In this document: positions 1,842 through 13,471 of the stretch, piece after piece
Position numbering within the stretch: the stretch's first letter is position 1
How the letters are laid out: every line of letters begins with the position of its first letter
DNA from: Escherichia coli
GTDB taxonomy: Bacteria; Pseudomonadota; Gammaproteobacteria; Enterobacterales; Enterobacteriaceae
Length of the DNA: 64,000 nt
Strand: one strand, 5' to 3'
Assembly (NCBI RefSeq): GCF_044324785.1
Contig: NZ_CP172127.1
Notes under the pieces: generated by a model
The model's input: the letters and a program-made list of their open reading frames with translations, nothing else
What the model was told of the DNA's origin: nothing
Database searches by the model: none
Made by a program: the position numbers and the translations under genes

Positions 1842-4274
1842 ATGACCACACTGAAACTGGATACGCTCAGCGACCGCATTAAAGCGCACAAAAATGCGCT
1901 GGTGCATATTGTGAAACCGCCGGTCTGTACCGAGCGCGCGCAGCACTATACTGAGATGTATCAACAACATCTCGATAAGCCGATCCCGGTACGTCGCGCG
2001 CTGGCGCTGGCGCATCACCTGGCGAATCGCACCATCTGGATCAAGCACGATGAGTTGATCATTGGCAACCAGGCAAGCGAAGTTCGCGCCGCGCCGATCT
2101 TCCCGGAATATACCGTCTCCTGGATCGAAAAAGAGATTGATGATCTGGCGGATCGTCCGGGTGCTGGTTTTGCGGTGAGCGAAGAGAACAAACGTGTTCT
2201 GCATGAAGTGTGCCCTTGGTGGCGCGGTCAGACGGTACAGGATCGCTGCTACGGCATGTTTACCGATGAGCAAAAAGGTCTGCTGGCGACCGGAATCATT
2301 AAAGCGGAAGGCAATATGACCTCCGGCGATGCGCACCTGGCGGTGAATTTCCCGCTACTGCTGGAAAAAGGTCTTGATGGTCTGCGCGAGAAAGTAGCGG
2401 AACGTCGCTCGCGCATCAACCTGACGGTGCTGGAAGATTTGCACGGCGAGCAGTTCCTGAAAGCGATTGATATCGTGCTGGTGGCAGTCAGTGAACACAT
2501 TGAACGTTTCGCTGCCCTGGCGCGTGAAATGGCAGCCACTGAAACCCGCGAAAGCCGTCGCGATGAACTGCTGGCGATAGCAGAAAACTGCGATCTTATC
2601 GCCCACCAGCCGCCGCAGACTTTCTGGCAGGCGCTGCAACTGTGCTACTTCATCCAGTTGATTTTGCAGATCGAATCTAACGGTCACTCGGTATCGTTTG
2701 GTCGTATGGACCAGTATCTCTACCCGTACTATCGCCGCGACGTTGAACTGAACCAGACACTGGATCGTGAACACGCCATCGAGATGCTGCATAGCTGCTG
2801 GTTAAAATTGCTGGAAGTGAACAAAATCCGCTCCGGCTCGCACTCGAAAGCCTCTGCGGGAAGTCCGCTGTATCAGAACGTCACCATTGGCGGACAAAAT
2901 CTGGTTGATGGTCAACCAATGGACGCGGTGAATCCACTCTCTTACGCGATCCTCGAATCCTGCGGTCGCCTGCGTTCTACTCAGCCTAACCTCAGCGTGC
3001 GTTACCATGCAGGAATGAGCAACGATTTCCTCGACGCCTGCGTACAGGTGATCCGCTGCGGCTTCGGGATGCCGGCGTTCAACAACGACGAAATCGTCAT
3101 CCCGGAATTTATTAAACTCGGTATTGAACCGCAGGACGCTTACGACTATGCAGCGATTGGTTGTATCGAAACCGCCGTCGGTGGCAAATGGGGCTATCGC
3201 TGTACCGGCATGAGCTTTATCAACTTCGCCCGCGTGATGCTGGCGGCGCTGGAAGGCGGGCGTGATGCCACCAGCGGCAAAGTGTTCCTGCCACAAGAAA
3301 AAGCGTTGTCAGCGGGTAACTTCAACAACTTCGATGAAGTAATGGACGCATGGGATACGCAAATCCGTTACTACACGCGTAAATCAATCGAAATCGAATA
3401 TGTCGTCGACACCATGCTGGAAGAGAACGTACACGATATTCTCTGCTCGGCGCTGGTGGATGACTGTATTGAGCGAGCGAAAAGTATCAAGCAAGGCGGC
3501 GCTAAATATGACTGGGTTTCTGGCCTGCAGGTCGGCATTGCTAACCTCGGCAACAGCCTGGCGGCAGTGAAGAAACTGGTATTTGAACAGGGCGCGATTG
3601 GTCAGCAACAGCTGGCTGCCGCACTGGCGGATGACTTCGACGGCCTGACTCACGAGCAGCTGCGTCAGCGGCTGATTAACGGTGCGCCTAAGTACGGCAA
3701 CGACGATGATACTGTCGATACGCTGCTGGCTCGCGCTTATCAGACCTATATCGACGAACTAAAACAGTACCATAACCCGCGCTATGGTCGTGGTCCGGTT
3801 GGCGGCAATTATTACGCGGGTACGTCATCTATCTCCGCTAACGTACCCTTTGGCGCGCAGACGATGGCAACGCCGGACGGGCGTAAAGCCCACACCCCGC
3901 TGGCAGAAGGCGCTAGTCCGGCCTCCGGTACTGATCATCTTGGCCCTACTGCGGTCATTGGCTCAGTGGGTAAACTGCCTACGGCCGCGATTCTCGGCGG
4001 CGTGTTGCTCAACCAGAAACTGAATCCGGCAACGCTGGAGAACGAATCTGACAAGCAGAAACTGATGATCCTGCTACGCACCTTCTTTGAAGTGCATAAA
4101 GGCTGGCATATTCAGTACAACATCGTTTCCCGCGAAACGCTGCTGGAAGCGAAAAAACATCCGGATCAGTACCGCGATCTGGTAGTGCGTGTCGCGGGTT
4201 ATTCCGCCTTCTTCACTGCGCTCTCTCCAGACGCACAGGACGATATCATCGCCCGTACTGAACATATGCTGTAA
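1842..4274 (+). CDS. ybiW: Glycyl radical enzyme (PFL-like, 810 aa)
   Basis: C-terminal glycyl-radical fingerprint RVAGYSAFF (Gly codon at 4197..4199) and active-site GCIE (3159..3170). Recognised as YbiW/PflF. Confidence 0.93.
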
Positions 4275-5386: not shown

Positions 5387-6652
5387 ATGGCTTCTACTTT
5401 TACCAGCGACACATTGCCTGCCGATCACAAAGCAGCTATCCGTCAGATGAAGCACGCGCTGCGGGCGCAGCTTGGCGACGTCCAGCAGATCTTTAATCAG
5501 CTAAGCGATGACATTGCCACGCGAGTGGCTGAAATCAACGCACTCAAAGCACAGGGCGATGCCGTCTGGCCGGTGCTGTCTTATGCCGATATCAAAGCAG
5601 GTCATGTTACTGCAGAGCAGCGCGAACAAATTAAACGTCGCGGTTGTGCGGTGATAAAAGGCCATTTCCCCCGCGAACAAGCGCTAGGCTGGGATCAGTC
5701 GATGCTGGACTATCTGGACCGCAACCGCTTTGACGAGGTCTACAAAGGCCCCGGCGATAATTTCTTCGGGACACTCAGCGCTTCACGTCCCGAGATTTAC
5801 CCCATCTACTGGTCGCAGGCGCAAATGCAGGCCCGCCAGAGTGAAGAAATGGCGAATGTGCAGTCGTTTCTCAATCGTCTGTGGACATTTGAAAGTGATG
5901 GAAAGCAATGGTTTAACCCGGATGTGAGCGTCATCTACCCTGACCGTATCCGCCGCCGTCCGCCCGGAACGACCTCCAAAGGTCTTGGAGCGCATACCGA
6001 CTCCGGGGCGCTGGAACGCTGGCTGCTTCCAGCGTATCAGCACGTTTTCGCCAACGTCTTTAATGGCAATCTGGCGAAATACGATCCCTGGCATGCGGCA
6101 CATCGTACGGAAGTTGAAGAGTACACGGTGGACAACACCACCAAATGTTCCGTGTTTCGGACATTCCAGGGCTGGACAGCGCTCTCTGATATGCTGCCTG
6201 GTCAGGGGTTGCTGCACGTCGTGCCCATTCCTGAAGCCATGGCGTACGTACTGTTACGTCCGCTGCTTGATGATGTGCCGGAGGATGAACTGTGCGGCGT
6301 AGCGCCCGGAAGAGTGTTGCCGGTATCAGAGCAATGGCATCCACTGTTAATTGAGGCGTTAACCAGCATTCCAAAACTCGAGGCCGGAGACTCCGTCTGG
6401 TGGCACTGCGACGTCATCCATTCCGTTGCCCCCGTTGAAAATCAACAGGGTTGGGGCAACGTGATGTACATTCCTGCGGCACCGATGTGCGAGAAAAATC
6501 TTGCCTACGCGCACAAGGTGAAGGCCGCACTGGAAAAAGGCGCATCGCCGGGCGACTTCCCGCGCGAGGACTATGAAACAAACTGGGAAGGACGCTTTAC
6601 GCTTGCCGACCTCAACATTCACGGTAAGCGAGCGTTGGGAATCGACAGCTGA
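5387..6652 (+). CDS. ybiU: DUF1479-family protein (421 aa)
   Basis: MASTFTSDTLPADHKAAIRQMKHALRAQLGD... recognised as YbiU. Start trimmed by 2 codons. Confidence 0.85.
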   Translation: MASTFTSDTLPADHKAAIRQMKHALRAQLGDVQQIFNQLSDDIATRVAEINALKAQGDAVWPVLSYADIKAGHVTAEQREQIKRRGCAVIKGHFPREQALGWDQSMLDYLDRNRFDEVYKGPGDNFFGTLSASRPEIYPIYWSQAQMQARQSEEMANVQSFLNRLWTFESDGKQWFNPDVSVIYPDRIRRRPPGTTSKGLGAHTDSGALERWLLPAYQHVFANVFNGNLAKYDPWHAAHRTEVEEYTVDNTTKCSVFRTFQGWTALSDMLPGQGLLHVVPIPEAMAYVLLRPLLDDVPEDELCGVAPGRVLPVSEQWHPLLIEALTSIPKLEAGDSVWWHCDVIHSVAPVENQQGWGNVMYIPAAPMCEKNLAYAHKVKAALEKGASPGDFPREDYETNWEGRFTLADLNIHGKRALGIDS

Positions 6653-7722
6653 GTGTCGTACAGCCCTTCCCGTTCCACGGCGGTGTTCCCTTTTCCTGGG
6701 CGAACCCGCCGCACTGACTCCCGCACCGCCAATCGTCCGTGCAGCAGCAGCGAGCCCACCGGAGCATCCGGGCGAATCAGCCGCTGTTGCAACATTTGCA
6801 CCGCTTCATTGCCTAGCTCATCGCGTGGCACATGCACAGCCGTCAGGGGAACATCCTCGATTGCCGCAAGGTTAAAGCCGTCGATACTCATCACCGAGAC
6901 ATCCTGTGGTACGCGCAGACCACGACGATGTAGCGCATTTACCGTTCCCGCCGCCATAAAATCCCCGCCGACCAGAAACGCCGTCGGCAACGTCTTGCCA
7001 TTGGCGGCATCCAGCCACGCTCCGACCTTTTCTTCCGCTTCTTTAGCGCTAAAACTGCTGATATTCAGCAAATGACGGTCATGGTGAAAGGCCAGATTAT
7101 GCTGACGCCATGATTCTTTAATCCCTGCAAACCGCTGCTCCATAGTGTAGCGGCGCAGGCACATCACATTCATCACCTCCCGGTGACCCATTTCAAACAG
7201 ATAGCGGGCGGCGAACGCGCCAATTAACCGATGGTCCGGCGCAATCGCCGGGAGGCGCATTCGTTCATCACGGCAGTTGATCAGCACACAAGGCTTAGCG
7301 AGATCGGCGGCCAGATCATGGATGTGCGGATCGTCAATCCCCAGCAGGATCGCCGCCTGCGTATCTGCTTCATTCATCCGCGAGAGAAATAGCGCGGGAT
7401 CGCTGTCAAACTCCTCCAGCGCGCAGTAACGCAGCCGCACTTCATGCGGCGATAACGCTTTGCTGATGCTCTGGATCACACGGTAATAAAAGATATCAGA
7501 TCGTTGGTCAAAAGCGCGTTGCGGCGCGAAAATAATCAGGTTGTTCAGCAACATACGACCTGCTGCCATGCCATCCATCACGCCCAACTCACGCGCGCAG
7601 GCCAGCACCTGTTCGCGAGCGCGTGCACTGGTATTCGCTTTGCCAGCCAGCACCCGCGAAACCGTACTCGGCGATAGCCCGGTACGTGCGGCGATATCGG
7701 CGATTTTCAGCTTCTTGTCCAT
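6619..7722 (-). CDS. LacI/GalR-family transcriptional regulator (367 aa); not in the K-12 backbone as I recall it
   Basis: N-terminal HTH MDKKLKIADIAARTGLSPSTVSRVLAGK followed by a periplasmic-binding-protein-like core. Start trimmed to 7722. The 3' tail overlaps the ybiU 3' end by 34 nt. Confidence 0.85.
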   Translation of the reverse strand: MDKKLKIADIAARTGLSPSTVSRVLAGKANTSARAREQVLACARELGVMDGMAAGRMLLNNLIIFAPQRAFDQRSDIFYYRVIQSISKALSPHEVRLRYCALEEFDSDPALFLSRMNEADTQAAILLGIDDPHIHDLAADLAKPCVLINCRDERMRLPAIAPDHRLIGAFAARYLFEMGHREVMNVMCLRRYTMEQRFAGIKESWRQHNLAFHHDRHLLNISSFSAKEAEEKVGAWLDAANGKTLPTAFLVGGDFMAAGTVNALHRRGLRVPQDVSVMSIDGFNLAAIEDVPLTAVHVPRDELGNEAVQMLQQRLIRPDAPVGSLLLHGRLAVRESVRRVRPGKGNTAVEREGLYDTQLSIPNARLP

Positions 7723-8016
7723 TTTGTGATCTGCCTCTAATTCGGAAATGACAGAATTTTCATGAGCAAAAAAGCCCATTCTGTCTGGCATTAAATCCAT
7801 TTCAGTAATGTATATCAGTCACTCATGGAAAAACGTGCACAAAACCCGCTTTCTTTCGCTTTTAGGGTCTCTTACTGTGAATTGGTAGAACAACTTCCAT
7901 ACAAAAATAATGGAAAAACGAACAACAAAGACTTTATTTATCAAAAAGTTAAAAGTGGTGTGACAACTCCATTCTGACGTTGCCGCACAAACCCTATACC
8001 ATTCTGTGGAGTGCAT

Positions 8017-9318
8017 ATGAGTCAGGGTATCAATAACGATATGACTGCCAGTAAACCGCGCCATATCGTCAAAAATCTGCGTTGGTGGATACTGGTCCTT
8101 TTTTTGCTCGGTGTTACTGTCAACTACATCACGCGTAACTCGCTGGGTATTCTCGCCCCCGAACTGAAAAGCAGCCTGGGGATTACCACCGAACAATATT
8201 CCTGGATTGTAGGTGCTTTCCAGCTCGCCTATACCCTATTCCAACCGTTGTGCGGATGGCTGATTGACGTCATTGGCCTCAAACTGGGCTTTATGATCTG
8301 CGCGGGACTGTGGGCACTGGCCTGTCTGATGCATGCGGGGGCGGGAAACTGGGTACATCTGGCGCTGTTGCGCTTCTTTATGGGCGGTGCGGAAGCCGCA
8401 GCAACCCCAGCAAACGCCAAAACCATCGGTGAATGGTTTCCAAAATCAGAACGCCCGATCGCCGCAGGCTGGGCAGGCGTCGGTTTTTCCATCGGTGCCA
8501 TGCTGGCCCCACCGATTATCTATTTTGCCCACGCTTCATTCGGCTGGCAGGGTGCATTTATGTTCACTGGCATCCTGGCGATGCTGTGGGTCGTGCTGTG
8601 GTGGGCGTTCTATCACAGCCCGGATAAGCATCCTAACCTCAGCAAAGCCGAGCTGGACTTTATTCGCCAGGATAACGAAGCGCCCCCGGTCAAGTTACCC
8701 TTTCTGACCGCACTGAAAACCGTGGGCAAAAATAAACGCTTTTACGGTATCGCTATCCCGGCCTTTATGGCAGAACCGGCGTGGGCGGTGATGAGTTTCT
8801 GGGTTCCGCTATACCTGTCCAAAACCTATGGCATGGACCTGAAGCAGATCGCATTATTCGCCTGGTTGCCGTTCCTCGCCGCTGATCTTGGCAGTATTGC
8901 CAGCGGCTATCTGACCAAACTTTACACCCGCCTGTTTGGGCTGAGTCGTGTGAACTCCGTTGTCGCATCATCGGTCAGTGGCGCATTCCTGATGGTTTCG
9001 CTGGCGGTGATGGCCTTTACCAATAACCCGTATATCGCCATCGTCCTTATCTCCATCGGCGGCTTCGGTCACCAGATCATCTCCTGCATGCTAAGCGCAC
9101 TGGTGGTGGAATCCTTCGACAAAGGTCAGATGGCCACTGTTAACGGCATGCGCGGTTCTGCCGCGTGGATCGCAAGTTTCCTGTTCTCCCTGATAATCGG
9201 GGTTACCGCAGACAAAATCGGCTTTAACCCCCTGTTTATCGCCATGGGCTTCTTTGACCTGATTGGCGCTTTCTTCCTGGTCACCTTTATTGCTGAACGT
9301 CGCGCAAAACGCGCCTGA
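8017..9318 (+). CDS. MFS transporter, anion:cation symporter family, ExuT (hexuronate transporter)-like
   Basis: LRWWILVLFLLGVTVNYITRNSLGILAPELKSSLGITTEQYSWIVGAFQLAYTLFQPLCGWLID... parallels ExuT as I remember it. GGAG lies 6-7 nt before the ATG at 8017. Confidence 0.85.
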   Translation: MSQGINNDMTASKPRHIVKNLRWWILVLFLLGVTVNYITRNSLGILAPELKSSLGITTEQYSWIVGAFQLAYTLFQPLCGWLIDVIGLKLGFMICAGLWALACLMHAGAGNWVHLALLRFFMGGAEAAATPANAKTIGEWFPKSERPIAAGWAGVGFSIGAMLAPPIIYFAHASFGWQGAFMFTGILAMLWVVLWWAFYHSPDKHPNLSKAELDFIRQDNEAPPVKLPFLTALKTVGKNKRFYGIAIPAFMAEPAWAVMSFWVPLYLSKTYGMDLKQIALFAWLPFLAADLGSIASGYLTKLYTRLFGLSRVNSVVASSVSGAFLMVSLAVMAFTNNPYIAIVLISIGGFGHQIISCMLSALVVESFDKGQMATVNGMRGSAAWIASFLFSLIIGVTADKIGFNPLFIAMGFFDLIGAFFLVTFIAERRAKRA

Positions 9319-9332
9319 GAGTGGATGTAAAC

Positions 9333-11696
9333 ATGAAAACGCTGAAAAACTGGACCCTGCACAAACAGTCTGCCCACCACGTTGAACTGCTGGTCGATGG
9401 CCAGCATATCCTGTGCCTGTACGTGCTGGAAGAAAATCTGTTCCGCGTGCTGTTAAAACGCAAAGGCGAGCTGGCGCTGGATCGCACCTGGAGCATTGCT
9501 CCGGCGCAGGATGTGCCATGGGAAGGGCGCAGCCGCGAAGATCTCAGCGGCTTTAGCCTGCCCGCGTGGACATTGATCCAGCACGACGACACCGTGGTTA
9601 TCGCCACCGAGTCACTGCGTGTCACCGTTCACCAGCCGCTGTGGCTGGAGTGGCACTATCGTAACAACGAAGGCGAATGGCTGCCGTTGGTGAATGACCG
9701 CCCGACCAGCGCTTATCTGCTGAATGCCCACGGCGATGGCGTGGCACACTATCAGAGCCGTCGTAAAGATGAACGCTTTTATGGCCTCGGAGATAAAGCC
9801 GGCGACCTGCAACGCAACGGTAAACGTTACGAGATGCGTAACCTCGACGCGATGGGCTACAACGCCGTTAGTACTGACCCGCTGTACAAACACATTCCAT
9901 TCACCATCACCCGCCGCGATGACATTAGCTTCGGCCTGTTTTATGACAACCTCAGCAGCTGCTGGCTGGATCTGGGCAACGAGATCGACAACTACCACAC
10001 CGCCTATCGCCGCTGGCAGGCGGAAGCGGGTGATATCGACTACTACCTGTTTACCGGCGAACGCGTACTTGATATCACCAAAGCCTTCGTACGCCTGACC
10101 GGAAAAACCCTGTTCGGACCGAAATGGAGCCTGGGCTACAGCGGTTCAACTATGCACTACACCGATGCGCCGGACGCACAAAATCAGTTGATGAACTTTA
10201 TCCGCCTGTGTGAAGAACATGCAATTCCCTGCGATTCGTTCCAGCTCTCTTCCGGTTATACCTCAATTAACGGCAAACGCTATGTGTTCAACTGGAACTA
10301 CGACAAAGTGCCGCAGCCGAAAGTGATGAGCCAGGCATTTCACAATGCTGGTTTGCACCTGGCCGCCAATATCAAGCCGTGCCTGTTGCAGGATCACCCA
10401 CGCTATAACGAAGTGGCAGAAAGAGGACTGTTCATCCGTGATTCAGAAACAGATGAACCAGAACGTTCCAGCTTCTGGGATGACGAAGGTTCTAACCTCG
10501 ACTTTACTAATCCGCAGACCATCCAGTGGTGGCAGGAAGGCGTGACCACACAGCTTCTGGAGATGGGTATCGACTCCACCTGGAACGACAACAACGAATT
10601 CGAAGTATGGGACGGTGAAGCACGCTGTCACGGCTTTGGTCAGACGATCGCGATCAAACATATTCGCCCAGTGATGCCACTGCTGATGATGCGAGCCTCG
10701 ATGGAAGCCCAGCAGCGTTTCGCTCCGGAAAAACGTCCGTACTTGATCTCCCGCTCCGGCTGCGCGGGAATGCAGCGCTACGTGCAGACCTGGAGTGGCG
10801 ATAACCGCACTAGCTGGGACACTCTGCGCTACAACACCCGCATGGGTCTGGGGATGAGCCTCTCCGGGTTGTATAACCTCGGTCACGACGTCGGCGGTTT
10901 CTCCGGTGATAAACCGGACCCGGAACTGTTTGTACGCTGGGTACAAAACGGCGTGATGCATCCGCGCTTTACGATTCACTCATGGAACGATGACCATACC
11001 GTAAACGAACCGTGGATGTATCCGGGCGTCACTCCGGCGATCCGCAGCGCTATTGAGTTGCGCTATCGCCTGCTGCCCTACTTTTATACCCTGATGTGGC
11101 AGGCATACGCCGATGATGAACCAATGCTACGTCCGACTTTCCTTGACCACGAGCACGACGTTCAGACTTTTGAAGAGTGTGATGACTTCCTGCTTGGTCG
11201 CGATATTTTGGTTGCCAGCGTCGTAGAGCAAGGCGAGCGCCAGCGCCGTGTATGGCTGCCAGATAACGAAACTGGCTGGTACGATTTCTACAACGGCGAA
11301 TGGTTCAGTGGCGGTCAGTGGATCACCCTCGACGCACCGCTGGAGAAACTGCCGCTGATGGTGCGTGCCGGGGCTGGTCTACCGCTCAGCAAACGCATCA
11401 CCTATGTGAGCGCAGAACAAGACGATACCCGCGAACTGAAACTGTTCCCGCTGAAAGGTGTGGGCACAACGTCCGGCCTGCTGTTTGAAGACGATGGCGA
11501 AAGCTGGGGCTACCAAACTGGTAATGCGCTTTGGGTGGAATGGGAAATGGTTTGCGATGGGGCGACCATCAACCTGAAAGTCAACGCGCGCGGGGATTAT
11601 CGTCCTGCATGGAGTGCACTGAAAGTGTCATTACCATTGGAAGAAAAACGCACGCTGCTGGTCAATGGTGTTGAAGGGAGTGAATGGATGCGTTAA
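9333..11696 (+). CDS. Glycoside hydrolase family 31 alpha-glycosidase (about 787 aa), specificity unknown
   Basis: GH31 signatures GIDSTWNDNNEF (nucleophile Asp region) and QTWSGDNRTSW. An alternative GTG start exists at 9321. The stop of the upstream MFS gene is 15 nt away, so it is probably an operon. Confidence 0.85.
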   Translation: MKTLKNWTLHKQSAHHVELLVDGQHILCLYVLEENLFRVLLKRKGELALDRTWSIAPAQDVPWEGRSREDLSGFSLPAWTLIQHDDTVVIATESLRVTVHQPLWLEWHYRNNEGEWLPLVNDRPTSAYLLNAHGDGVAHYQSRRKDERFYGLGDKAGDLQRNGKRYEMRNLDAMGYNAVSTDPLYKHIPFTITRRDDISFGLFYDNLSSCWLDLGNEIDNYHTAYRRWQAEAGDIDYYLFTGERVLDITKAFVRLTGKTLFGPKWSLGYSGSTMHYTDAPDAQNQLMNFIRLCEEHAIPCDSFQLSSGYTSINGKRYVFNWNYDKVPQPKVMSQAFHNAGLHLAANIKPCLLQDHPRYNEVAERGLFIRDSETDEPERSSFWDDEGSNLDFTNPQTIQWWQEGVTTQLLEMGIDSTWNDNNEFEVWDGEARCHGFGQTIAIKHIRPVMPLLMMRASMEAQQRFAPEKRPYLISRSGCAGMQRYVQTWSGDNRTSWDTLRYNTRMGLGMSLSGLYNLGHDVGGFSGDKPDPELFVRWVQNGVMHPRFTIHSWNDDHTVNEPWMYPGVTPAIRSAIELRYRLLPYFYTLMWQAYADDEPMLRPTFLDHEHDVQTFEECDDFLLGRDILVASVVEQGERQRRVWLPDNETGWYDFYNGEWFSGGQWITLDAPLEKLPLMVRAGAGLPLSKRITYVSAEQDDTRELKLFPLKGVGTTSGLLFEDDGESWGYQTGNALWVEWEMVCDGATINLKVNARGDYRPAWSALKVSLPLEEKRTLLVNGVEGSEWMR

Positions 11697-11875
11697 ATCA
11701 TTACCGGGGCCGGGAGGCGACTGCACCTTACCCGGTCCAGCCATCGAATCCTTTACCTCAGTATTTCACGCTGCAGGAAGGCAGCAAACCTGTAAACCCC
11801 GGGAGCTTAAATAAGTAAGTGACCGGGGTGAACAGGTGAAGCCAATGCATCTGCCGCATGAAAGACGGCGGGGAA

Positions 11876-13471
11876 TTAACCGTCGATCCCTTTACTACGC
11901 AGGTAATCTTCGTAATTACCGCTAAAGTCAATAACGCGTTCCGGGGTGATTTCCAGAATGCGGGTCGCCAGGGAGCTTACGAACTCACGGTCGTGTGAAA
12001 CAAAGATCAGCGTGCCCTGATACAGTTCCAGCGCCATGTTCAGCGACTCGATGGATTCCATATCCAGGTGGTTGGTCGGTTCGTCCATGATCAGAATGTT
12101 CGGCTTCTGCATCATTAACTTACCAAACAGCATCCGCCCTTTTTCCCCACCGGAAAGCACTTTCGCTGGTTTTTTGATGTCGTCCTGGCTGAACAGCAAA
12201 CGACCGAGAATGCTGCGTACCGCCTGCTCGTCATCGCCTTCCTGCTTCCACTGGCTCATCCATTCGAACACGGTCAGATCATTTTCAAACTCATATTCGT
12301 GGTCCTGAGCATAGTAACCAATGCGCGCGTTTTCAGACCATTTTACGGTGCCGCTGTCCGGTTGCAGATCGCCCACCAGCGTTTTCAGCAGCGTTGATTT
12401 ACCGACGCCGTTGGTACCCAGTACCGCAAGTTTTTCACCGACCTCCAGCAGCAGGTTGAGATTTTTAAACAGTGGACCGTTATCAAACCCTTTGGTCAGA
12501 CCTTCCACTTCCAGCGCGTTACGGAACAGTTTCTTATCCTGTTCAAAACGGATGAACGGGTTCTGACGGCTGGAGGCTTTCACCTCTTCCAGTTTGATTT
12601 TATCAATCTGGCGCGCGCGCGAAGTTGCCTGGCGAGATTTCGAGGCGTTGGCGCTAAAGCGGCTAACGAAAGATTGCAGCTCAGCAATCTGCGCTTTCTT
12701 CTTGGCGTTATCAGCCAGCAGACGTTCACGCGCCTGGGTCGCCGCCGTCATGTACTCATCGTAGTTGCCCGGATAAACGCGCAGCTCGCCGTAATCCAGA
12801 TCCGCCATATGGGTACAAACCATGTTAAGGAAGTGACGGTCGTGCGAGATGATGATCATGGTGCTGTCACGCTCGTTCAGCACCTGTTCCAGCCAACGAA
12901 TGGTGTCGATGTCGAGGTTGTTGGTCGGTTCGTCGAGCAGGAGAATGTCTGGATCAGCAAAAAGCGCCTGTGCCAGCAGCACACGCAGCTTCCAGCCAGG
13001 AGCAACTTCACTCATCGGGCCGTAGTGCTGTTCCACTGGAATTCCCACGCCAAGCAACAATTCACCGGCGCGAGCTTCCGCAGAGTAACCGTCCATTTCG
13101 CCGTATTTCACTTCCAGATCGGCCACTTTATAGCCGTCTTCTTCACTCATTTCCGGCAAAGCATAGATGCGGTCACGCTCCTGCTTCACTTCCCACAACT
13201 CTTTATGCCCCATGATCACCGTATCCAGCACAGTGAACTCTTCAAAGGCAAACTGATCCTGACGCAGCTTACCAATGCGCTCGTTGGGATCGAGGGAAAC
13301 GTTACCCAACGTCGGCTCTAAGTCGCCGCCGAGGATCTTCATAAAGGTGGATTTACCACTACCGTTCGCGCCAATCAGGCCGTAACGGTTGCCGCCGCCA
13401 AATTTGACGGAAATGTTTTCAAACAACGGCTTACTGCCGAACTGCATGGTGACGTTACTGGAAACTAACAC
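11876..13471 (-). CDS. ybiT: ABC-F family ATPase (two ABC domains, no TMD)
   Basis: Two Walker A motifs ([18 protein letters not shown]) and two LSGGE signatures. Recognised as YbiT. Confidence 0.93.

What the first reader, a model, noticed from the sequence alone, without database searches (positions are those of the whole stretch)
8017..11696. Pairing of an anion-type (hexuronate-like) MFS transporter with a GH31 alpha-glycosidase hints at an acidic alpha-glycoside substrate
E. coli GH31 enzymes I know are paired with GPH-family sugar:cation symporters (yicI/yicJ, yihQ/yihO-P). This GH31 is co-transcribed with an ACS-family transporter that looks like ExuT, a family that carries anionic sugars. 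The hydrolase has intact catalytic motifs (WNDNNE and WSGDN), so it should be active. An anionic alpha-linked glycoside is therefore a reasonable but unproven guess; uronic, sulfo- or phospho-substituted glycosides would all fit. The segment SGYTSINGKRYVFNWNYD resembles the region where the sulfoquinovosidase YihQ carries its sulfonate-binding Arg/Trp. I cannot verify the alignment from memory.
Basis: inference. Interest (0 to 1): 0.5.

Follow-up and report, generated by a model that had tools for sequence, protein, structure and literature searches.

The report
Probable alpha-glucuronide uptake and hydrolysis operon
This accessory E. coli gene trio (repressor, acid-sugar transporter, family-31 glycosidase) most likely imports and splits an alpha-linked glycoside that contains glucuronic acid, an activity not yet described for this enzyme family.

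Summary
An ExuT-like MFS gene (8017-9318) lies 14 nt upstream of an intact GH31 gene (9333-11696). A divergent LacI-family repressor sits beside them, between ybiU and ybiT. The trio occurs in 575 of 5426 complete E. coli genomes. The MFS-GH31 pair is kept in all 78 related Enterobacterales loci that could be scored.

- The transporter keeps the carboxylate-binding Tyr/Arg/Tyr and Glu of DgoT.
- Two UxuR/ExuR-type operators sit in the promoter region; one overlaps a -35-like hexamer.
- In Pantoea and Erwinia the pair lies beside uxuA-uxuB-uxaC.
- Relatives 41-48% identical sit with complete glucuronate pathways, TRAP transporters, a uronate dehydrogenase homologue or a GH2 beta-hexuronidase.

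The enzyme belongs to a large GH31 subfamily. No member has a solved structure, and no characterisation was found in the papers searched. The C4-C6 face of its sugar pocket is remodelled: two Asp are lost and one Lys is gained.

Sulfoquinovosidase membership fails; one of four motif residues is kept.

Best reading: an alpha counterpart of the gus operon. No assay has been done. Whether glucuronate is the glycone or the aglycone is unresolved.

The parts
6619..7722 (-). LacI-family repressor gene. The likely start is MDKKLKIADIAA at 7722; the ORF is open up to 7800. Its 3' end overlaps the 3' end of ybiU by 34 nt.
   Evidence: Pfam LacI HTH plus Peripla_BP_3/1. No NCBIfam equivalog reaches its cut-off. 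The gene is conserved divergently from the MFS gene in most Enterobacterales loci at 54-97% identity. The 367-aa product from 7722 was checked.
7882..7893 (.). Box 1, a UxuR/ExuR-type operator candidate: TTGGTAGAACAA (9 of 10 matches to TTGGTnnACCAA). It coincides with a -35-like hexamer, TTGGTA.
   Evidence: It is one of only two sites scoring 9/10 or better in the 64-kb window. The same motif occurs at the K-12 gntP/uxuA, uxuR and exuR promoters. It is conserved in alignment A2. Perfect 10/10 boxes occupy the equivalent place in Serratia, Yersinia, Pectobacterium, Pantoea and Atlantibacter.
7882..7911 (+). Sigma-70-like promoter candidate: -35 TTGGTA, 18-nt spacer, -10 AATAAT.
   Evidence: Consensus scan, 9 of 12 matches. 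This is a pattern match only and was not enriched over shuffles.
7955..7966 (.). Box 2, a weaker UxuR/ExuR-type operator candidate: GTGGTGTGACAA (7 of 10) within AAAAGTGGTGTGACAACTCC.
   Evidence: It resembles the K-12 exuR and uxaB upstream sites AAAAGTGGTATAACAAATAT and TAAAGTGGTAGAACACATTG. It is conserved in Kluyvera, Pseudocitrobacter and Scandinavium.
8017..9318 (+). ExuT-like MFS transporter of the anion:cation symporter type, 433 aa.
   Evidence: MFS_1 and TIGR00893. 43% identical to ExuT. Best solved relative is DgoT (1e-38). The DgoT carboxylate ligands Y44/R47/Y79 and the coupling residue E133 are conserved as Y37/R40/Y72/E126.
9333..11696 (+). GH31 alpha-glycosidase, 787 aa, with no signal peptide. 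The ORF is also open from the GTG at 9321, and the residue numbers used in this report count from that GTG.
   Evidence: Four GH31 Pfam domains. AlphaFold2 model with pLDDT 96.9. Nearest solved structures are FjDex31A and ER glucosidase II at 25-26% identity. Orthologue length of 787 aa. No N-terminal hydrophobic signal segment.
10587..10589 (+). Codon of the catalytic nucleophile D423 (WNDNNE).
   Evidence: Aligns with YicI D416 and YihQ D405. Invariant in alignment A1.
10800..10802 (+). Codon of the acid/base D494 (WSGDN).
   Evidence: Aligns with YicI D482 and YihQ D472. Invariant in alignment A1.
10248..10259 (+). Codons of S310-S311-G312-Y313, the subfamily signature that replaces the canonical D-I/L-D-Y of GH31 alpha-glucosidases.
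   Evidence: These residues align with YicI D306-C307-F308-W309.
10374..10376 (+). Codon of K352. Lys is conserved across the subfamily where canonical GH31 enzymes mostly have Asp (I/V-D-P).

Best explanation
The three genes form a self-contained catabolic module for a small alpha-linked glycoside of D-glucuronic acid. It would be an alpha-anomer counterpart of the E. coli gus (uidABC) beta-glucuronide operon.

Proposed steps:
1. The ExuT-like MFS protein imports the anionic glycoside by proton symport. Its conserved TM1 Arg and two Tyr hold the carboxylate.
2. The cytoplasmic GH31 enzyme cleaves the alpha-glycosidic bond by the usual retaining double displacement (nucleophile D423, acid/base D494). 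I consider it most likely that the glucuronosyl residue itself sits in the -1 subsite, making the enzyme an alpha-glucuronidase.
3. The released D-glucuronate enters the chromosomal UxaC, UxuB, UxuA, KdgK, Eda route. The aglycone (for example xylose, glycerol or inositol) is handled by housekeeping pathways, so no further genes are needed.
4. Expression is under dual control: the adjacent LacI-type repressor, whose inducer is presumably the glycoside, and the hexuronate regulators UxuR/ExuR acting at two operators, one of which overlaps the -35.

Shown here: gene order, intact catalytic residues, conserved carboxylate ligands, operator motifs and their conservation, and linkage to glucuronate genes in other taxa.

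Inferred: the transported species, the sugar in subsite -1, repressor binding, and the natural substrate.

Candidate substrates, all speculative:
- aldobiouronic acid, (Me)GlcA-alpha-1,2-Xyl, from glucuronoxylan;
- alpha-glucuronosylglycerol from glucuronosyl-diacylglycerol lipids;
- GlcA-alpha-1,2-inositol head groups of plant sphingolipids.
For: 1. Transporter. It is 43% identical to ExuT. The DgoT residues that bind the substrate carboxylate (Y44, R47, Y79) and the coupling Glu133 are conserved.

2. Regulation.
- TTGGTAGAACAA at 7882-7893 matches TTGGTnnACCAA at 9 of 10 positions. Only two such sites occur in 64 kb.
- The same motif marks the K-12 uxuA/gntP, uxuR and exuR promoters.
- 35 of 76 related loci have a site scoring 9/10 or better within 320 nt upstream of the MFS gene, and 14 of these are perfect. 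Only 0.6% of 1520 control windows reach 9/10.
- Box 1 overlaps a -35-like hexamer.

3. Pantoea and Erwinia. LacI is absent there. The pair is divergent from uxuA, uxuB (fructuronate reductase, 803-823 bits against a cut-off of 603), uxaC and a GntR/FCD regulator.

4. More distant subfamily members:
- L098 (47% identical): UxuB-like and UxaC genes, divergent from ManD-KdgK-Eda-DctQ-DctM-GH31-DctP. ManD is confirmed at 738 bits against a cut-off of 550.
- L102 (42%): ManD, divergent from UxaC-UxuB-like-Eda-KdgK-GH31.
- L104 (48%): GH2 beta-hexuronidase (PDB 6ncy, 2.7e-176), then a TRAP transporter, then GH31.
- L089 (41%): uronate dehydrogenase homologue (PDB 3rft, 1e-45), then an ABC transporter, then GH31.
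- L097 (46%): UxaC lies nearby.
- Paraburkholderia (48%): ExuT-like MFS, then GH31, then a porin.
- Counting Pantoea/Erwinia, 7 of 12 distinct context types carry uronate-specific genes or carboxylate-type transporters.

4a. TRAP transporters take carboxylates through a conserved Arg (established knowledge).

5. Pocket.
- Of the 11 residues that line subsite -1 in human GAA, seven are identical here and one more (I441, here L355) is conservatively replaced; together they include the catalytic pair and the Arg and His.
- The other three are changed: D404 to S310, W376 to M278, M519 to N424.
- The canonical D-x-D is S-S-G here, and a canonical Asp before the invariant Pro is K352.
- These changes are shared by the whole subfamily.
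- They remove acidic groups and add a basic one on the C4-C6 side of the sugar, as expected for a C6 carboxylate in subsite -1.

6. Localisation. No signal peptide, so hydrolysis is cytoplasmic.
Against: - No biochemical or genetic test exists.
- The model coordinates could not be inspected, so the orientation of K352, R320, S310/S311 and N424 toward C6 is inferred from alignment only.
- Some subfamily members sit in contexts without uronate genes: Bosea (L090), Eubacterium (L093/L094), SAR11 (L095/L096), and L084 and L103. The subfamily may therefore hold several specificities.
- ER glucosidase II and FjDex31A also deviate at part of the D-x-D motif yet act on neutral glucosides.
- In the E. 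coli copy both operators are imperfect (9/10 and 7/10).
- Alpha-glucuronidase activity has never been reported for GH31, to my knowledge and in the papers searched.
- The context evidence fits glucuronate as the aglycone equally well.
Confidence: 0.45

Rival explanations
1. Glucuronate is the aglycone, not the glycone. The GH31 enzyme removes a neutral alpha-linked sugar (glucose, xylose or GlcNAc) from the non-reducing end of a disaccharide such as Glc-alpha-1,4-GlcA, Xyl-alpha-1,3-GlcA or GlcNAc-alpha-1,4-GlcA. The MFS protein recognises the carboxylate of the reducing-end uronate. The products are a neutral sugar plus glucuronate.
For: All transporter, operator and gene-context evidence only requires that glucuronate is released, not that it occupies subsite -1. 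Eight of the 11 GAA subsite -1 positions, including Arg and His, are identical or conservatively replaced. Some relatives sit beside a PIG-L-type deacetylase (L097, L103). That would fit a GlcNAc-alpha-linked substrate.
Against: It does not explain why the whole subfamily has replaced the residues on the C4-C6 face of subsite -1: Asp to Ser, Asp to Gly, Asp to Lys, Met to Asn and Trp to Met. A canonical glucose or xylose pocket would have been kept. Aglycone (+1) subsites are usually the variable part of GH31 enzymes, yet the conserved novelty here lies in subsite -1.
Confidence: 0.3
2. The substrate carries another acidic group: alpha-galacturonide (for example digalacturonate), sulfoquinovoside, or an alpha-glucoside with an aldonate or glycerate aglycone (maltobionate, glucosylglycerate).
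For: ExuT carries both hexuronates, and UxaC and uronate dehydrogenase act on both (established knowledge). R320 aligns with the sulfonate-binding R301 of YihQ. A SAR11 relative lies beside a split TPP enzyme and a 2-hydroxyacid dehydrogenase, which could belong to sulfonate metabolism.
Against: The branch-specific neighbours are always of the glucuronate branch and never UxaA/UxaB: UxuA, UxuB and ManD, with UxuB and ManD above their NCBIfam cut-offs and UxuA at 482 bits against a Pfam gathering cut-off of 23.7. The sulfoquinovosidase motif Q/E-R-W-Y is met at one of four positions, and no sulfoglycolysis genes are nearby. No gluconate or glycerate genes were seen in any context.
Confidence: 0.12
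3. It is an ordinary neutral alpha-glucoside or alpha-xyloside system. The transporter's resemblance to ExuT reflects ancestry only.
For: Databases label the enzyme alpha-glucosidase or alpha-xylosidase. The nearest solved structures are neutral alpha-glucosidases. A LacI-type repressor is typical of neutral sugar operons.
Against: The carboxylate ligands are conserved in the MFS protein. Hexuronate-type operators lie upstream. Linkage to glucuronate pathways and TRAP transporters recurs. NCBIfam scores are far below the MalA, YicI and YihQ-type cut-offs. The YicI specificity residues are not conserved.
Confidence: 0.05

Closest known systems
E. coli gus/uid operon (uidA beta-glucuronidase GH2, uidB glucuronide:H+ symporter, uidC; repressors UidR and UxuR)
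   Same: The logic is the same. A dedicated transporter and a cytoplasmic exo-glycosidase release D-glucuronate for the UxaC-UxuB-UxuA pathway. Control is dual: a local specific repressor plus the hexuronate regulator UxuR (established knowledge; operator motif). One relative (L104) encodes a GH2 beta-hexuronidase in the same operon as the GH31 enzyme.
   Different: The expected bond is alpha, because GH31 enzymes are alpha-specific and retaining. The enzyme fold is GH31 rather than GH2. The transporter is of the ACS/ExuT type rather than the GPH family. The repressor is LacI-type rather than TetR-type. There is no outer-membrane component.
Sulfoquinovosidase YihQ with YihO/YihP (GH31 subfamily 13)
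   Same: A GH31 enzyme adapted to a glucose analogue with an anionic C6 substituent. The adaptation lies in the same beta3-to-alpha3 segment. The Arg that contacts the sulfonate in YihQ (R301) aligns with the conserved R320.
   Different: Only 28% identity, starting from residue 318. W304 is F323 here, Y508 is F527, and Q288 is not matched. The transporter family differs. No sulfoglycolysis genes are present. Strains carry yihQ elsewhere.
ExuT, the E. coli hexuronate:H+ symporter (ACS family, TC 2.A.1.14); structural reference DgoT
   Same: 43% identity over the full length. The carboxylate-binding Tyr/Arg/Tyr and the TM4 Glu are conserved, and D46 is replaced by Thr exactly as in ExuT. In Pantoea the gene occupies an exuT-like position, divergent from uxaC.
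   Different: It is a distinct orthologous group: 74-99% identity among the enterobacterial loci scored, against 43% to ExuT. It is always followed by GH31. It presumably takes a glycoside rather than a free hexuronate. It scores below the TIGR00893 cut-off.
Known alpha-glucuronidases (GH67, GH115, GH4 AguA-type)
   Same: The predicted reaction is the same: release of (4-O-methyl-)D-glucuronic acid from alpha-glucuronides such as aldouronic acids.
   Different: Neither Pfam nor NCBIfam placed the protein in any family other than GH31. GH67 and GH115 are inverting enzymes and GH4 is NAD-dependent (established knowledge), whereas this enzyme has the GH31 retaining Asp/Asp pair.
ER glucosidase II alpha subunit and Flavobacterium johnsoniae dextranase FjDex31A (nearest solved structures)
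   Same: The same four-domain GH31 architecture, with TM-score 0.84-0.86. The catalytic Asp pair and the Arg, His, Trp and Phe of subsite -1 are conserved.
   Different: 25-26% identity. These enzymes keep the beta3 Asp (WLDIEH, YQDIGW), the I/V-D-P Asp and the Met of WxDMNE. All three are replaced in this subfamily.

Membership tests
Glycoside hydrolase family 31 | GH31 catalytic (beta/alpha)8 domain with N-terminal, proximal and distal beta-sandwich domains | tested here: met
   PF01055 (297 bits), PF13802, PF21365 and PF17137 are all above their cut-offs. The AlphaFold2 model has pLDDT 96.9 and TM-score 0.86 to 6jr6.
Glycoside hydrolase family 31 | Catalytic nucleophile Asp (WxDxNE) and acid/base Asp (WxGD) | tested here: met
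   D423 and D494 align with YicI D416/D482 and YihQ D405/D472. Both are invariant in the 83-sequence alignment A1.
Canonical GH31 alpha-glucosidases (subfamily 1: GAA, MGAM, MalA, glucosidase II) | Complete subsite -1 set as in GAA: D404, W376, I441, W516, D518, M519, R600, W613, D616, F649, H674 | tested here: not met
   Seven of 11 are identical and I441 is conservatively replaced (L355). D404 is S310, W376 is M278 and M519 is N424. The mapping goes through family motifs, and GAA numbering comes from my knowledge of its sequence. MalA equivalog NF040948 scores 305 bits against a cut-off of 800.
Alpha-xylosidase YicI type (GH31 subfamily 3) | Equivalog score and the specificity residues F277, C307, F308, W345, K414 | tested here: not met
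   NF007940 scores 230 bits against a cut-off of 606. The aligned residues are H279, S311, G312, N350 and W421. The residue list is recalled from Okuyama et al. 2006. The residue identities in YicI were verified.
Sulfoquinovosidases (GH31 subfamily 13, YihQ) | Q/E-R-W-Y motif (Q288, R301, W304, Y508 in EcYihQ) | tested here: not met
   The motif is taken from PMC12780224. Here R320 is kept, W304 is F323, Y508 is F527, and Q288 aligns near S310. NF007746 scores 138 bits against a cut-off of 553.
Sulfoquinovosidases (GH31 subfamily 13, YihQ) | Linkage to sulfoglycolysis genes (yihS, yihT, yihU, yihV type) | tested here: not met
   The neighbours are ybiU, LacI, MFS and ybiT. Compare the K-12 yih cluster.
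Anion:cation symporter (ACS) family of the MFS, ExuT/DgoT type | Carboxylate-binding TM1 Arg with two Tyr, and the TM4 Glu (DgoT Y44, R47, Y79, E133) | tested here: met
   Y37, R40, Y72 and E126. 43% identity to ExuT. The curated TIGR00893 cut-off is not reached (266 bits against 395).
Anion:cation symporter (ACS) family of the MFS, ExuT/DgoT type | Transport of an organic anion | not testable with these tools
   Needs uptake assays.
UxuR/ExuR (hexuronate) regulon | Operator of the type TTGGTnnACCAA in the promoter region | tested here: met
   Box 1 at 7882-7893 scores 9/10 and box 2 at 7955-7966 scores 7/10. The motif is enriched and conserved across genera.
UxuR/ExuR (hexuronate) regulon | Binding by UxuR/ExuR and induction by hexuronates | not testable with these tools
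   Needs EMSA or reporter assays.
Alpha-glucuronidase (EC 3.2.1.139) as an activity | Hydrolysis of alpha-D-glucuronosyl linkages | not testable with these tools
   Inferred only, from gene context and pocket changes.

The most novel reading that the evidence does not exclude
The entire 'LSSGY / WNDNNE / IKP' subfamily of GH31 consists of retaining alpha-glucuronidases, an activity never assigned to GH31. The subfamily is present in Enterobacterales (including K. pneumoniae, Y. pestis and Serratia), Burkholderiales, alpha-proteobacteria, SAR11 and gut Firmicutes. On this reading the E. coli trio is the missing alpha counterpart of the gus operon. If so, it would also be the obvious candidate for the undefined pathway by which Enterobacter asburiae JDR-1 ferments methylglucuronoxylose. 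It could equally be a route for recycling glucuronosyl-glycerolipid head groups, parallel to sulfoquinovosidase and sulfolipids.
Probability: 0.35. Interest if true: 0.8.

Novelty: new variant of a known kind. Interest (0 to 1): 0.65.

Why it matters
GH31 is one of the best-studied glycosidase families. Its members include Pompe disease GAA, the intestinal maltase and sucrase, ER glucosidase II and the sulfoquinovosidases.

- A large, widespread subfamily tied to glucuronate catabolism would add a new substrate class to GH31. It would also give a fourth, mechanistically distinct route to alpha-glucuronide cleavage, besides GH67, GH115 and GH4.
- For Enterobacterales it would define a new accessory carbon-source trait. 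The trait is present in about 10% of complete E. coli genomes and was found in the Klebsiella, Enterobacter, Serratia, Pantoea and Yersinia genomes among the related loci. It is relevant to plant-fibre cross-feeding in the gut and to plant association.
- For biotechnology it is an obvious candidate for letting E. coli biocatalysts use the acid-resistant aldobiouronate fraction of hardwood hydrolysates. E. coli W, which I recall as the parent of the ethanol strain KO11, lacks the island.
- The prediction can be tested directly with one recombinant enzyme and a few substrates.

Tried and rejected
1. Sulfoquinovosidase: rejected. One of four motif residues is kept, identity to YihQ is 28%, and no sulfoglycolysis genes are present.

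2. YicI-type alpha-xylosidase and MalA-type alpha-glucosidase: scores are far below the cut-offs and the specificity residues differ.

3. Recent horizontal insertion into E. coli: rejected in favour of ancestral presence and loss.
- The same ybiU/ybiT site is occupied in Kluyvera, Enterobacter, Klebsiella, Kosakonia and Salmonella diarizonae.
- K-12 has about 250 bp of unrelated REP-containing DNA there.
- E. coli W has IS621 there.
- G+C content is unremarkable.

4. LacI operator: an inverted repeat CTTCCAT-N9-ATGGAA lies next to box 1, but it is clear only in the Escherichia/Kluyvera group. Its co-occurrence with LacI could not be shown. Left open.

5. First operator scan: it used the wrong spacing (N4) and found nothing. 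It was corrected to N2.

6. Assignment to a numbered CAZy GH31 subfamily: not possible. The subfamily paper (JBC 2023, PMC10074150) and the Okuyama review are not held, and no dbCAN tool is available.

7. Literature searches found no characterisation. The terms were GH31 with ExuT, alpha-glucuronidase, UxaC, glucuronic acid and glucuronosyl, plus methylglucuronoxylose and aldobiouronate. A Salmonella lactulose paper mentions a GH31 gene; the passages I read did not connect it to this locus, and I did not check which GH31 gene it is.

8. The Bi, Rice and Preston 2009 paper on E. asburiae JDR-1 could not be read. What I say about it is from memory.

10. P0121, the closest non-enterobacterial relative at 53% identity, has an uninformative context.

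Full report
**What is in the window**

The region is E. coli DNA: 99.7% identical to many complete genomes. The gene order is ybiV, ybiU, then three extra genes, then ybiT, ldtB and ybiR. The three extra genes are:
- a LacI-family repressor on the minus strand (6619-7722; the ORF is open to 7800);
- an MFS transporter (8017-9318);
- a GH31 glycosidase (9333-11696; the ORF is also open from a GTG at 9321).

Pfam finds MFS_1 in the transporter and all four GH31 domains in the hydrolase. No NCBIfam equivalog cut-off is reached by any of the three proteins. The transporter stop and the hydrolase ATG are 14 nt apart. No promoter-like or terminator-like site lies in that gap. The hydrolase has no N-terminal signal segment.

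**Distribution**

A hit covering at least 80% of the query (window 6500-11900) is found in 575 of 5426 complete E. coli genomes. K-12 has about 250 bp of unrelated, REP-containing DNA between ybiU and ybiT. E. coli W has an IS621 copy there.

A genome-collection scan gave 593 relatives. The best 80 are all Enterobacterales at 75-99% protein identity. The MFS gene directly precedes the GH31 gene in 78 of these 80 loci, and the other two are cut by contig ends. In Kluyvera, Enterobacter, Leclercia, Klebsiella, Raoultella, Kosakonia, Phytobacter and Salmonella diarizonae the trio sits at the same ybiU/ybiT site. The module is therefore old in the Enterobacteriaceae and was lost from most E. coli. 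It is not a recent insertion.

**The transporter**

It is 43% identical to K-12 ExuT over the full length (E 7e-120). Its only close solved relative is the D-galactonate:H+ symporter DgoT (1e-38).

In DgoT the substrate carboxylate is held by Arg47, Tyr44 and Tyr79, and Glu133 couples protonation to binding. Arg47 is described as the family's carboxylate sensor (PMC6532931). All four residues are conserved here as Y37, R40, Y72 and E126, counting from the Met at 8017. Asp46 is Thr, exactly as in ExuT. The protein therefore has the features of a carboxylate transporter.

**Regulation**

I took TTGGTnnACCAA as the UxuR/ExuR half-palindrome and checked it on K-12 itself.
- The gntP/uxuA intergenic region has two sites scoring 9/10.
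- The uxuR upstream region has one site at 9/10.
- The exuR upstream region has one site at 8/10.
- uxaB and exuT have weaker sites.

In the window, TGAATTGGTAGAACAACTTC (box 1, 7882-7893) scores 9/10. It is one of only two such sites in 64 kb. A second site, AAAAGTGGTGTGACAACTCC (box 2, 7955-7966), scores 7/10 and resembles the K-12 exuR and uxaB sites. Box 1 coincides with the -35 hexamer of the only promoter-like site upstream of the MFS gene.

Across the related loci, 35 of 76 have a site of 9/10 or better within 320 nt upstream of the MFS gene. Fourteen are perfect, in Serratia, Yersinia, Pectobacterium, Pantoea, Erwinia and Atlantibacter. Only 0.6% of 1520 control windows from the same loci reach 9/10, and none is perfect. 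Both boxes are conserved blocks in an alignment of the intergenic regions.

The loci are related, so these are not independent trials. The motif nevertheless persists where the surrounding DNA has diverged. The operon thus looks like a member of the hexuronate regulon as well as the target of its own LacI-type repressor. I could not define the LacI operator.

**Gene context elsewhere**

In Pantoea and Erwinia the LacI gene is absent. The MFS-GH31 pair is divergent from uxuA, uxuB (present in some loci; fructuronate reductase at 803-823 bits against a cut-off of 603), uxaC and a GntR/FCD regulator.

A search of 1.8 billion cluster representatives found 2857 relatives below 1e-30. I read the surroundings of eleven of them. 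With the Pantoea/Erwinia arrangement that makes twelve distinct context types.

| Locus (source) | Identity to the E. coli enzyme | Neighbouring genes |
|---|---|---|
| L098 | 47% | UxuB-like and UxaC genes, divergent from ManD-KdgK-Eda-DctQ-DctM-GH31-DctP |
| L102 | 42% | ManD, divergent from UxaC-UxuB-like-Eda-KdgK-GH31 |
| L104 | 48% | GH2 beta-hexuronidase (PDB 6ncy, 2.7e-176), TRAP transporter, GH31, LysR |
| L089 | 41% | uronate dehydrogenase homologue (PDB 3rft, 1e-45; the next SDR hit is 8e-11), CUT1 ABC transporter, GH31 |
| L097 | 46% | AraC, GH31, a GDE_C-like protein, a PIG-L deacetylase, an MFS gene and UxaC |
| L087 (Paraburkholderia) | 48% | MFS 46% identical to the window's, then GH31, then a porin |
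| L084 | 53% | no uronate genes |
| L090 (Bosea) | 40% | LacI, ABC transporter, SDR; no uronate genes |
| L093/L094 (Eubacterium) | 40% | MFS and a carboxylesterase; no uronate genes |
| L095/L096 (SAR11) | 40% | ABC transporter, split TPP enzyme, 2-hydroxyacid dehydrogenase; no uronate genes |
| L103 | 45% | ROK, ABC transporter, PIG-L, PGI; no uronate genes |

Counting the Pantoea/Erwinia arrangement, 7 of 12 context types carry uronate-specific enzymes or transporters of carboxylate-carrying families. ManD is confirmed as an equivalog in L098 and L102 (738 and 750 bits against a cut-off of 550). Every branch-specific enzyme seen (UxuA, UxuB, ManD) belongs to the glucuronate branch, not the galacturonate branch. 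TRAP transporters bind carboxylates through a conserved Arg (established knowledge).

**The enzyme**

The AlphaFold2 model is confident (pLDDT 96.9). The nearest solved structures share only 25-26% identity: FjDex31A, ER glucosidase II and Agd31B.

An alignment of representatives shows a well-defined subfamily whose motifs differ from canonical GH31.

| Subfamily motif | Canonical GH31 motif |
|---|---|
| G-Y-x-G-S-x-M | G-Y-H-Q-S-R-Y/W |
| L-S-S-G-Y | L-D-I-D-Y |
| I/V-K-P | I/V-D-P |
| W-N-D-N-N-E | W-N-D-M-N-E |
| I-H-S-W-N/K | R-N-H-S |

The catalytic Asp pair is invariant, and most other canonical subsite -1 residues are kept in nearly all members. Human GAA binds deoxynojirimycin through D404, D518, R600, D616 and H674, and packs it with W376, I441, W516, M519, W613 and F649 (PMC5653652). 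Mapped through the family motifs, seven of these are identical here and I441 is L355. The three that are replaced are D404 (S310), W376 (M278) and M519 (N424).

By alignment, YicI D306-C307-F308 corresponds to S310-S311-G312. From memory of Okuyama et al. 2006, the second position of this D-x-D motif decides whether a C6 hydroxymethyl is accepted. From general knowledge, the first Asp binds the 4-OH end of the ring.

The subfamily has therefore lost two or three acidic residues and gained a conserved Lys (K352) on the C4-C6 side of subsite -1. The C1-C3 side is unchanged. R320 is conserved in nearly all members and aligns with the sulfonate-binding R301 of YihQ, although glucosidase II has an Arg there too.

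This pattern is what one would expect if the -1 sugar carries a C6 carboxylate. The changes are conserved across the subfamily, while transporters and aglycone-related neighbours vary. For that reason I favour glucuronate as the glycone. I could not inspect the model coordinates, so this step is inference.

**Comparison with known families**

- Sulfoquinovosidase membership fails. Of the Q/E-R-W-Y motif (PMC12780224) only the Arg is present.
- YicI-type and MalA-type membership fails on score and on specificity residues.
- The enzyme is a true GH31 member, but of a subfamily without a solved structure. I found no published characterisation.
- I could not assign a CAZy subfamily number because the classification paper is not held.
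- In function, the closest analogue is the gus operon. It also pairs a transporter with a cytoplasmic glycosidase that feeds glucuronate to UxaC-UxuB-UxuA, under a local repressor plus UxuR.

**Verdict**

I put about 0.8 on some acidic substrate, about 0.75 on glucuronate being released, and 0.45 on the enzyme being an alpha-glucuronidase proper.

Natural substrates remain guesses:
- aldobiouronic acid from glucuronoxylan;
- alpha-glucuronosylglycerol from glucuronosyl-diacylglycerol lipids (the plant lipid is noted in PMC13436972);
- plant sphingolipid head groups.

The link to methylglucuronoxylose fermentation by Enterobacter asburiae JDR-1 is a lead from memory only. The citation was seen, but the paper could not be read. 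The absence of the island from E. coli W is compatible with that lead but proves nothing.

Noticed in passing
window 6619-6652: The 3' ends of ybiU (stop at 6652) and the convergent LacI-family gene (stop at 6619) overlap by 34 nt. Homology to K-12 breaks a few codons before the ybiU stop (6645) and just inside ybiT (11883), so the last residues of both flanking genes differ between island-positive and island-negative strains.
   Followed up: partly
window 7723-7800: The LacI ORF is open 26 codons upstream of the LacI-typical start MDKKLKIADIAA. The stretch just upstream of that start contains TTTTGTGATCTGCC, which resembles a CRP half-site. Related k-mers recur in 30-40 of the related loci.
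   Followed up: no
window 7898-7921: An inverted repeat CTTCCAT-N9-ATGGAA lies immediately after operator box 1. In Enterobacter, Kosakonia and Scandinavium the equivalent sequence is CTTCCATACTAGT..GTATGG. It may be the LacI-type operator, but the link was not established.
   Followed up: partly
window 2908-2919: This is the only other 9/10 match to TTGGTnnACCAA in the window (GTTGATGGTCAACCAATGGA). I did not check whether it lies in a gene. It is probably chance.
   Followed up: no
L099 4557-4796 (K-12) and L101 7679-9192 (E. coli W): The empty ybiT/ybiU site is not a clean deletion. K-12 carries about 250 bp with REP-like palindromes, and E. coli W carries an IS621 transposase gene.
   Followed up: partly
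L095/L096 8001-12483 (Pelagibacteraceae contigs): A SAR11 member of the same GH31 subfamily follows a CUT1 ABC transporter. It precedes a split TPP enzyme (165 + 190 aa; its size and split recall sulfopyruvate or phosphonopyruvate decarboxylase), a 2-hydroxyacid dehydrogenase and a GFO/IDH/MocA oxidoreductase. This may point to a different anionic substrate in the ocean.
   Followed up: no
L097 10383-13072 and L103 5399-8008: Two subfamily members sit beside a PIG-L-type de-N-acetylase and an unannotated 618-648 aa protein. The L097 protein hits GDE_C; the L103 protein has no Pfam hit, and neither has an NCBIfam hit. This suggests a sub-clade acting on an N-acetylhexosamine-containing glycoside.
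   Followed up: no
L093/L094 5251-10304 (Eubacterium sp., cluster of about 6000 sequences): An abundant gut Firmicutes member of the subfamily forms an apparent operon with an MFS/GPH-like transporter and a carboxylesterase (COesterase). This hints at an esterified substrate.
   Followed up: no
L087 11488-12675 (Paraburkholderia): A porin gene directly follows the MFS-GH31 pair. Together they form a three-part uptake and hydrolysis unit reminiscent of uidABC.
   Followed up: no
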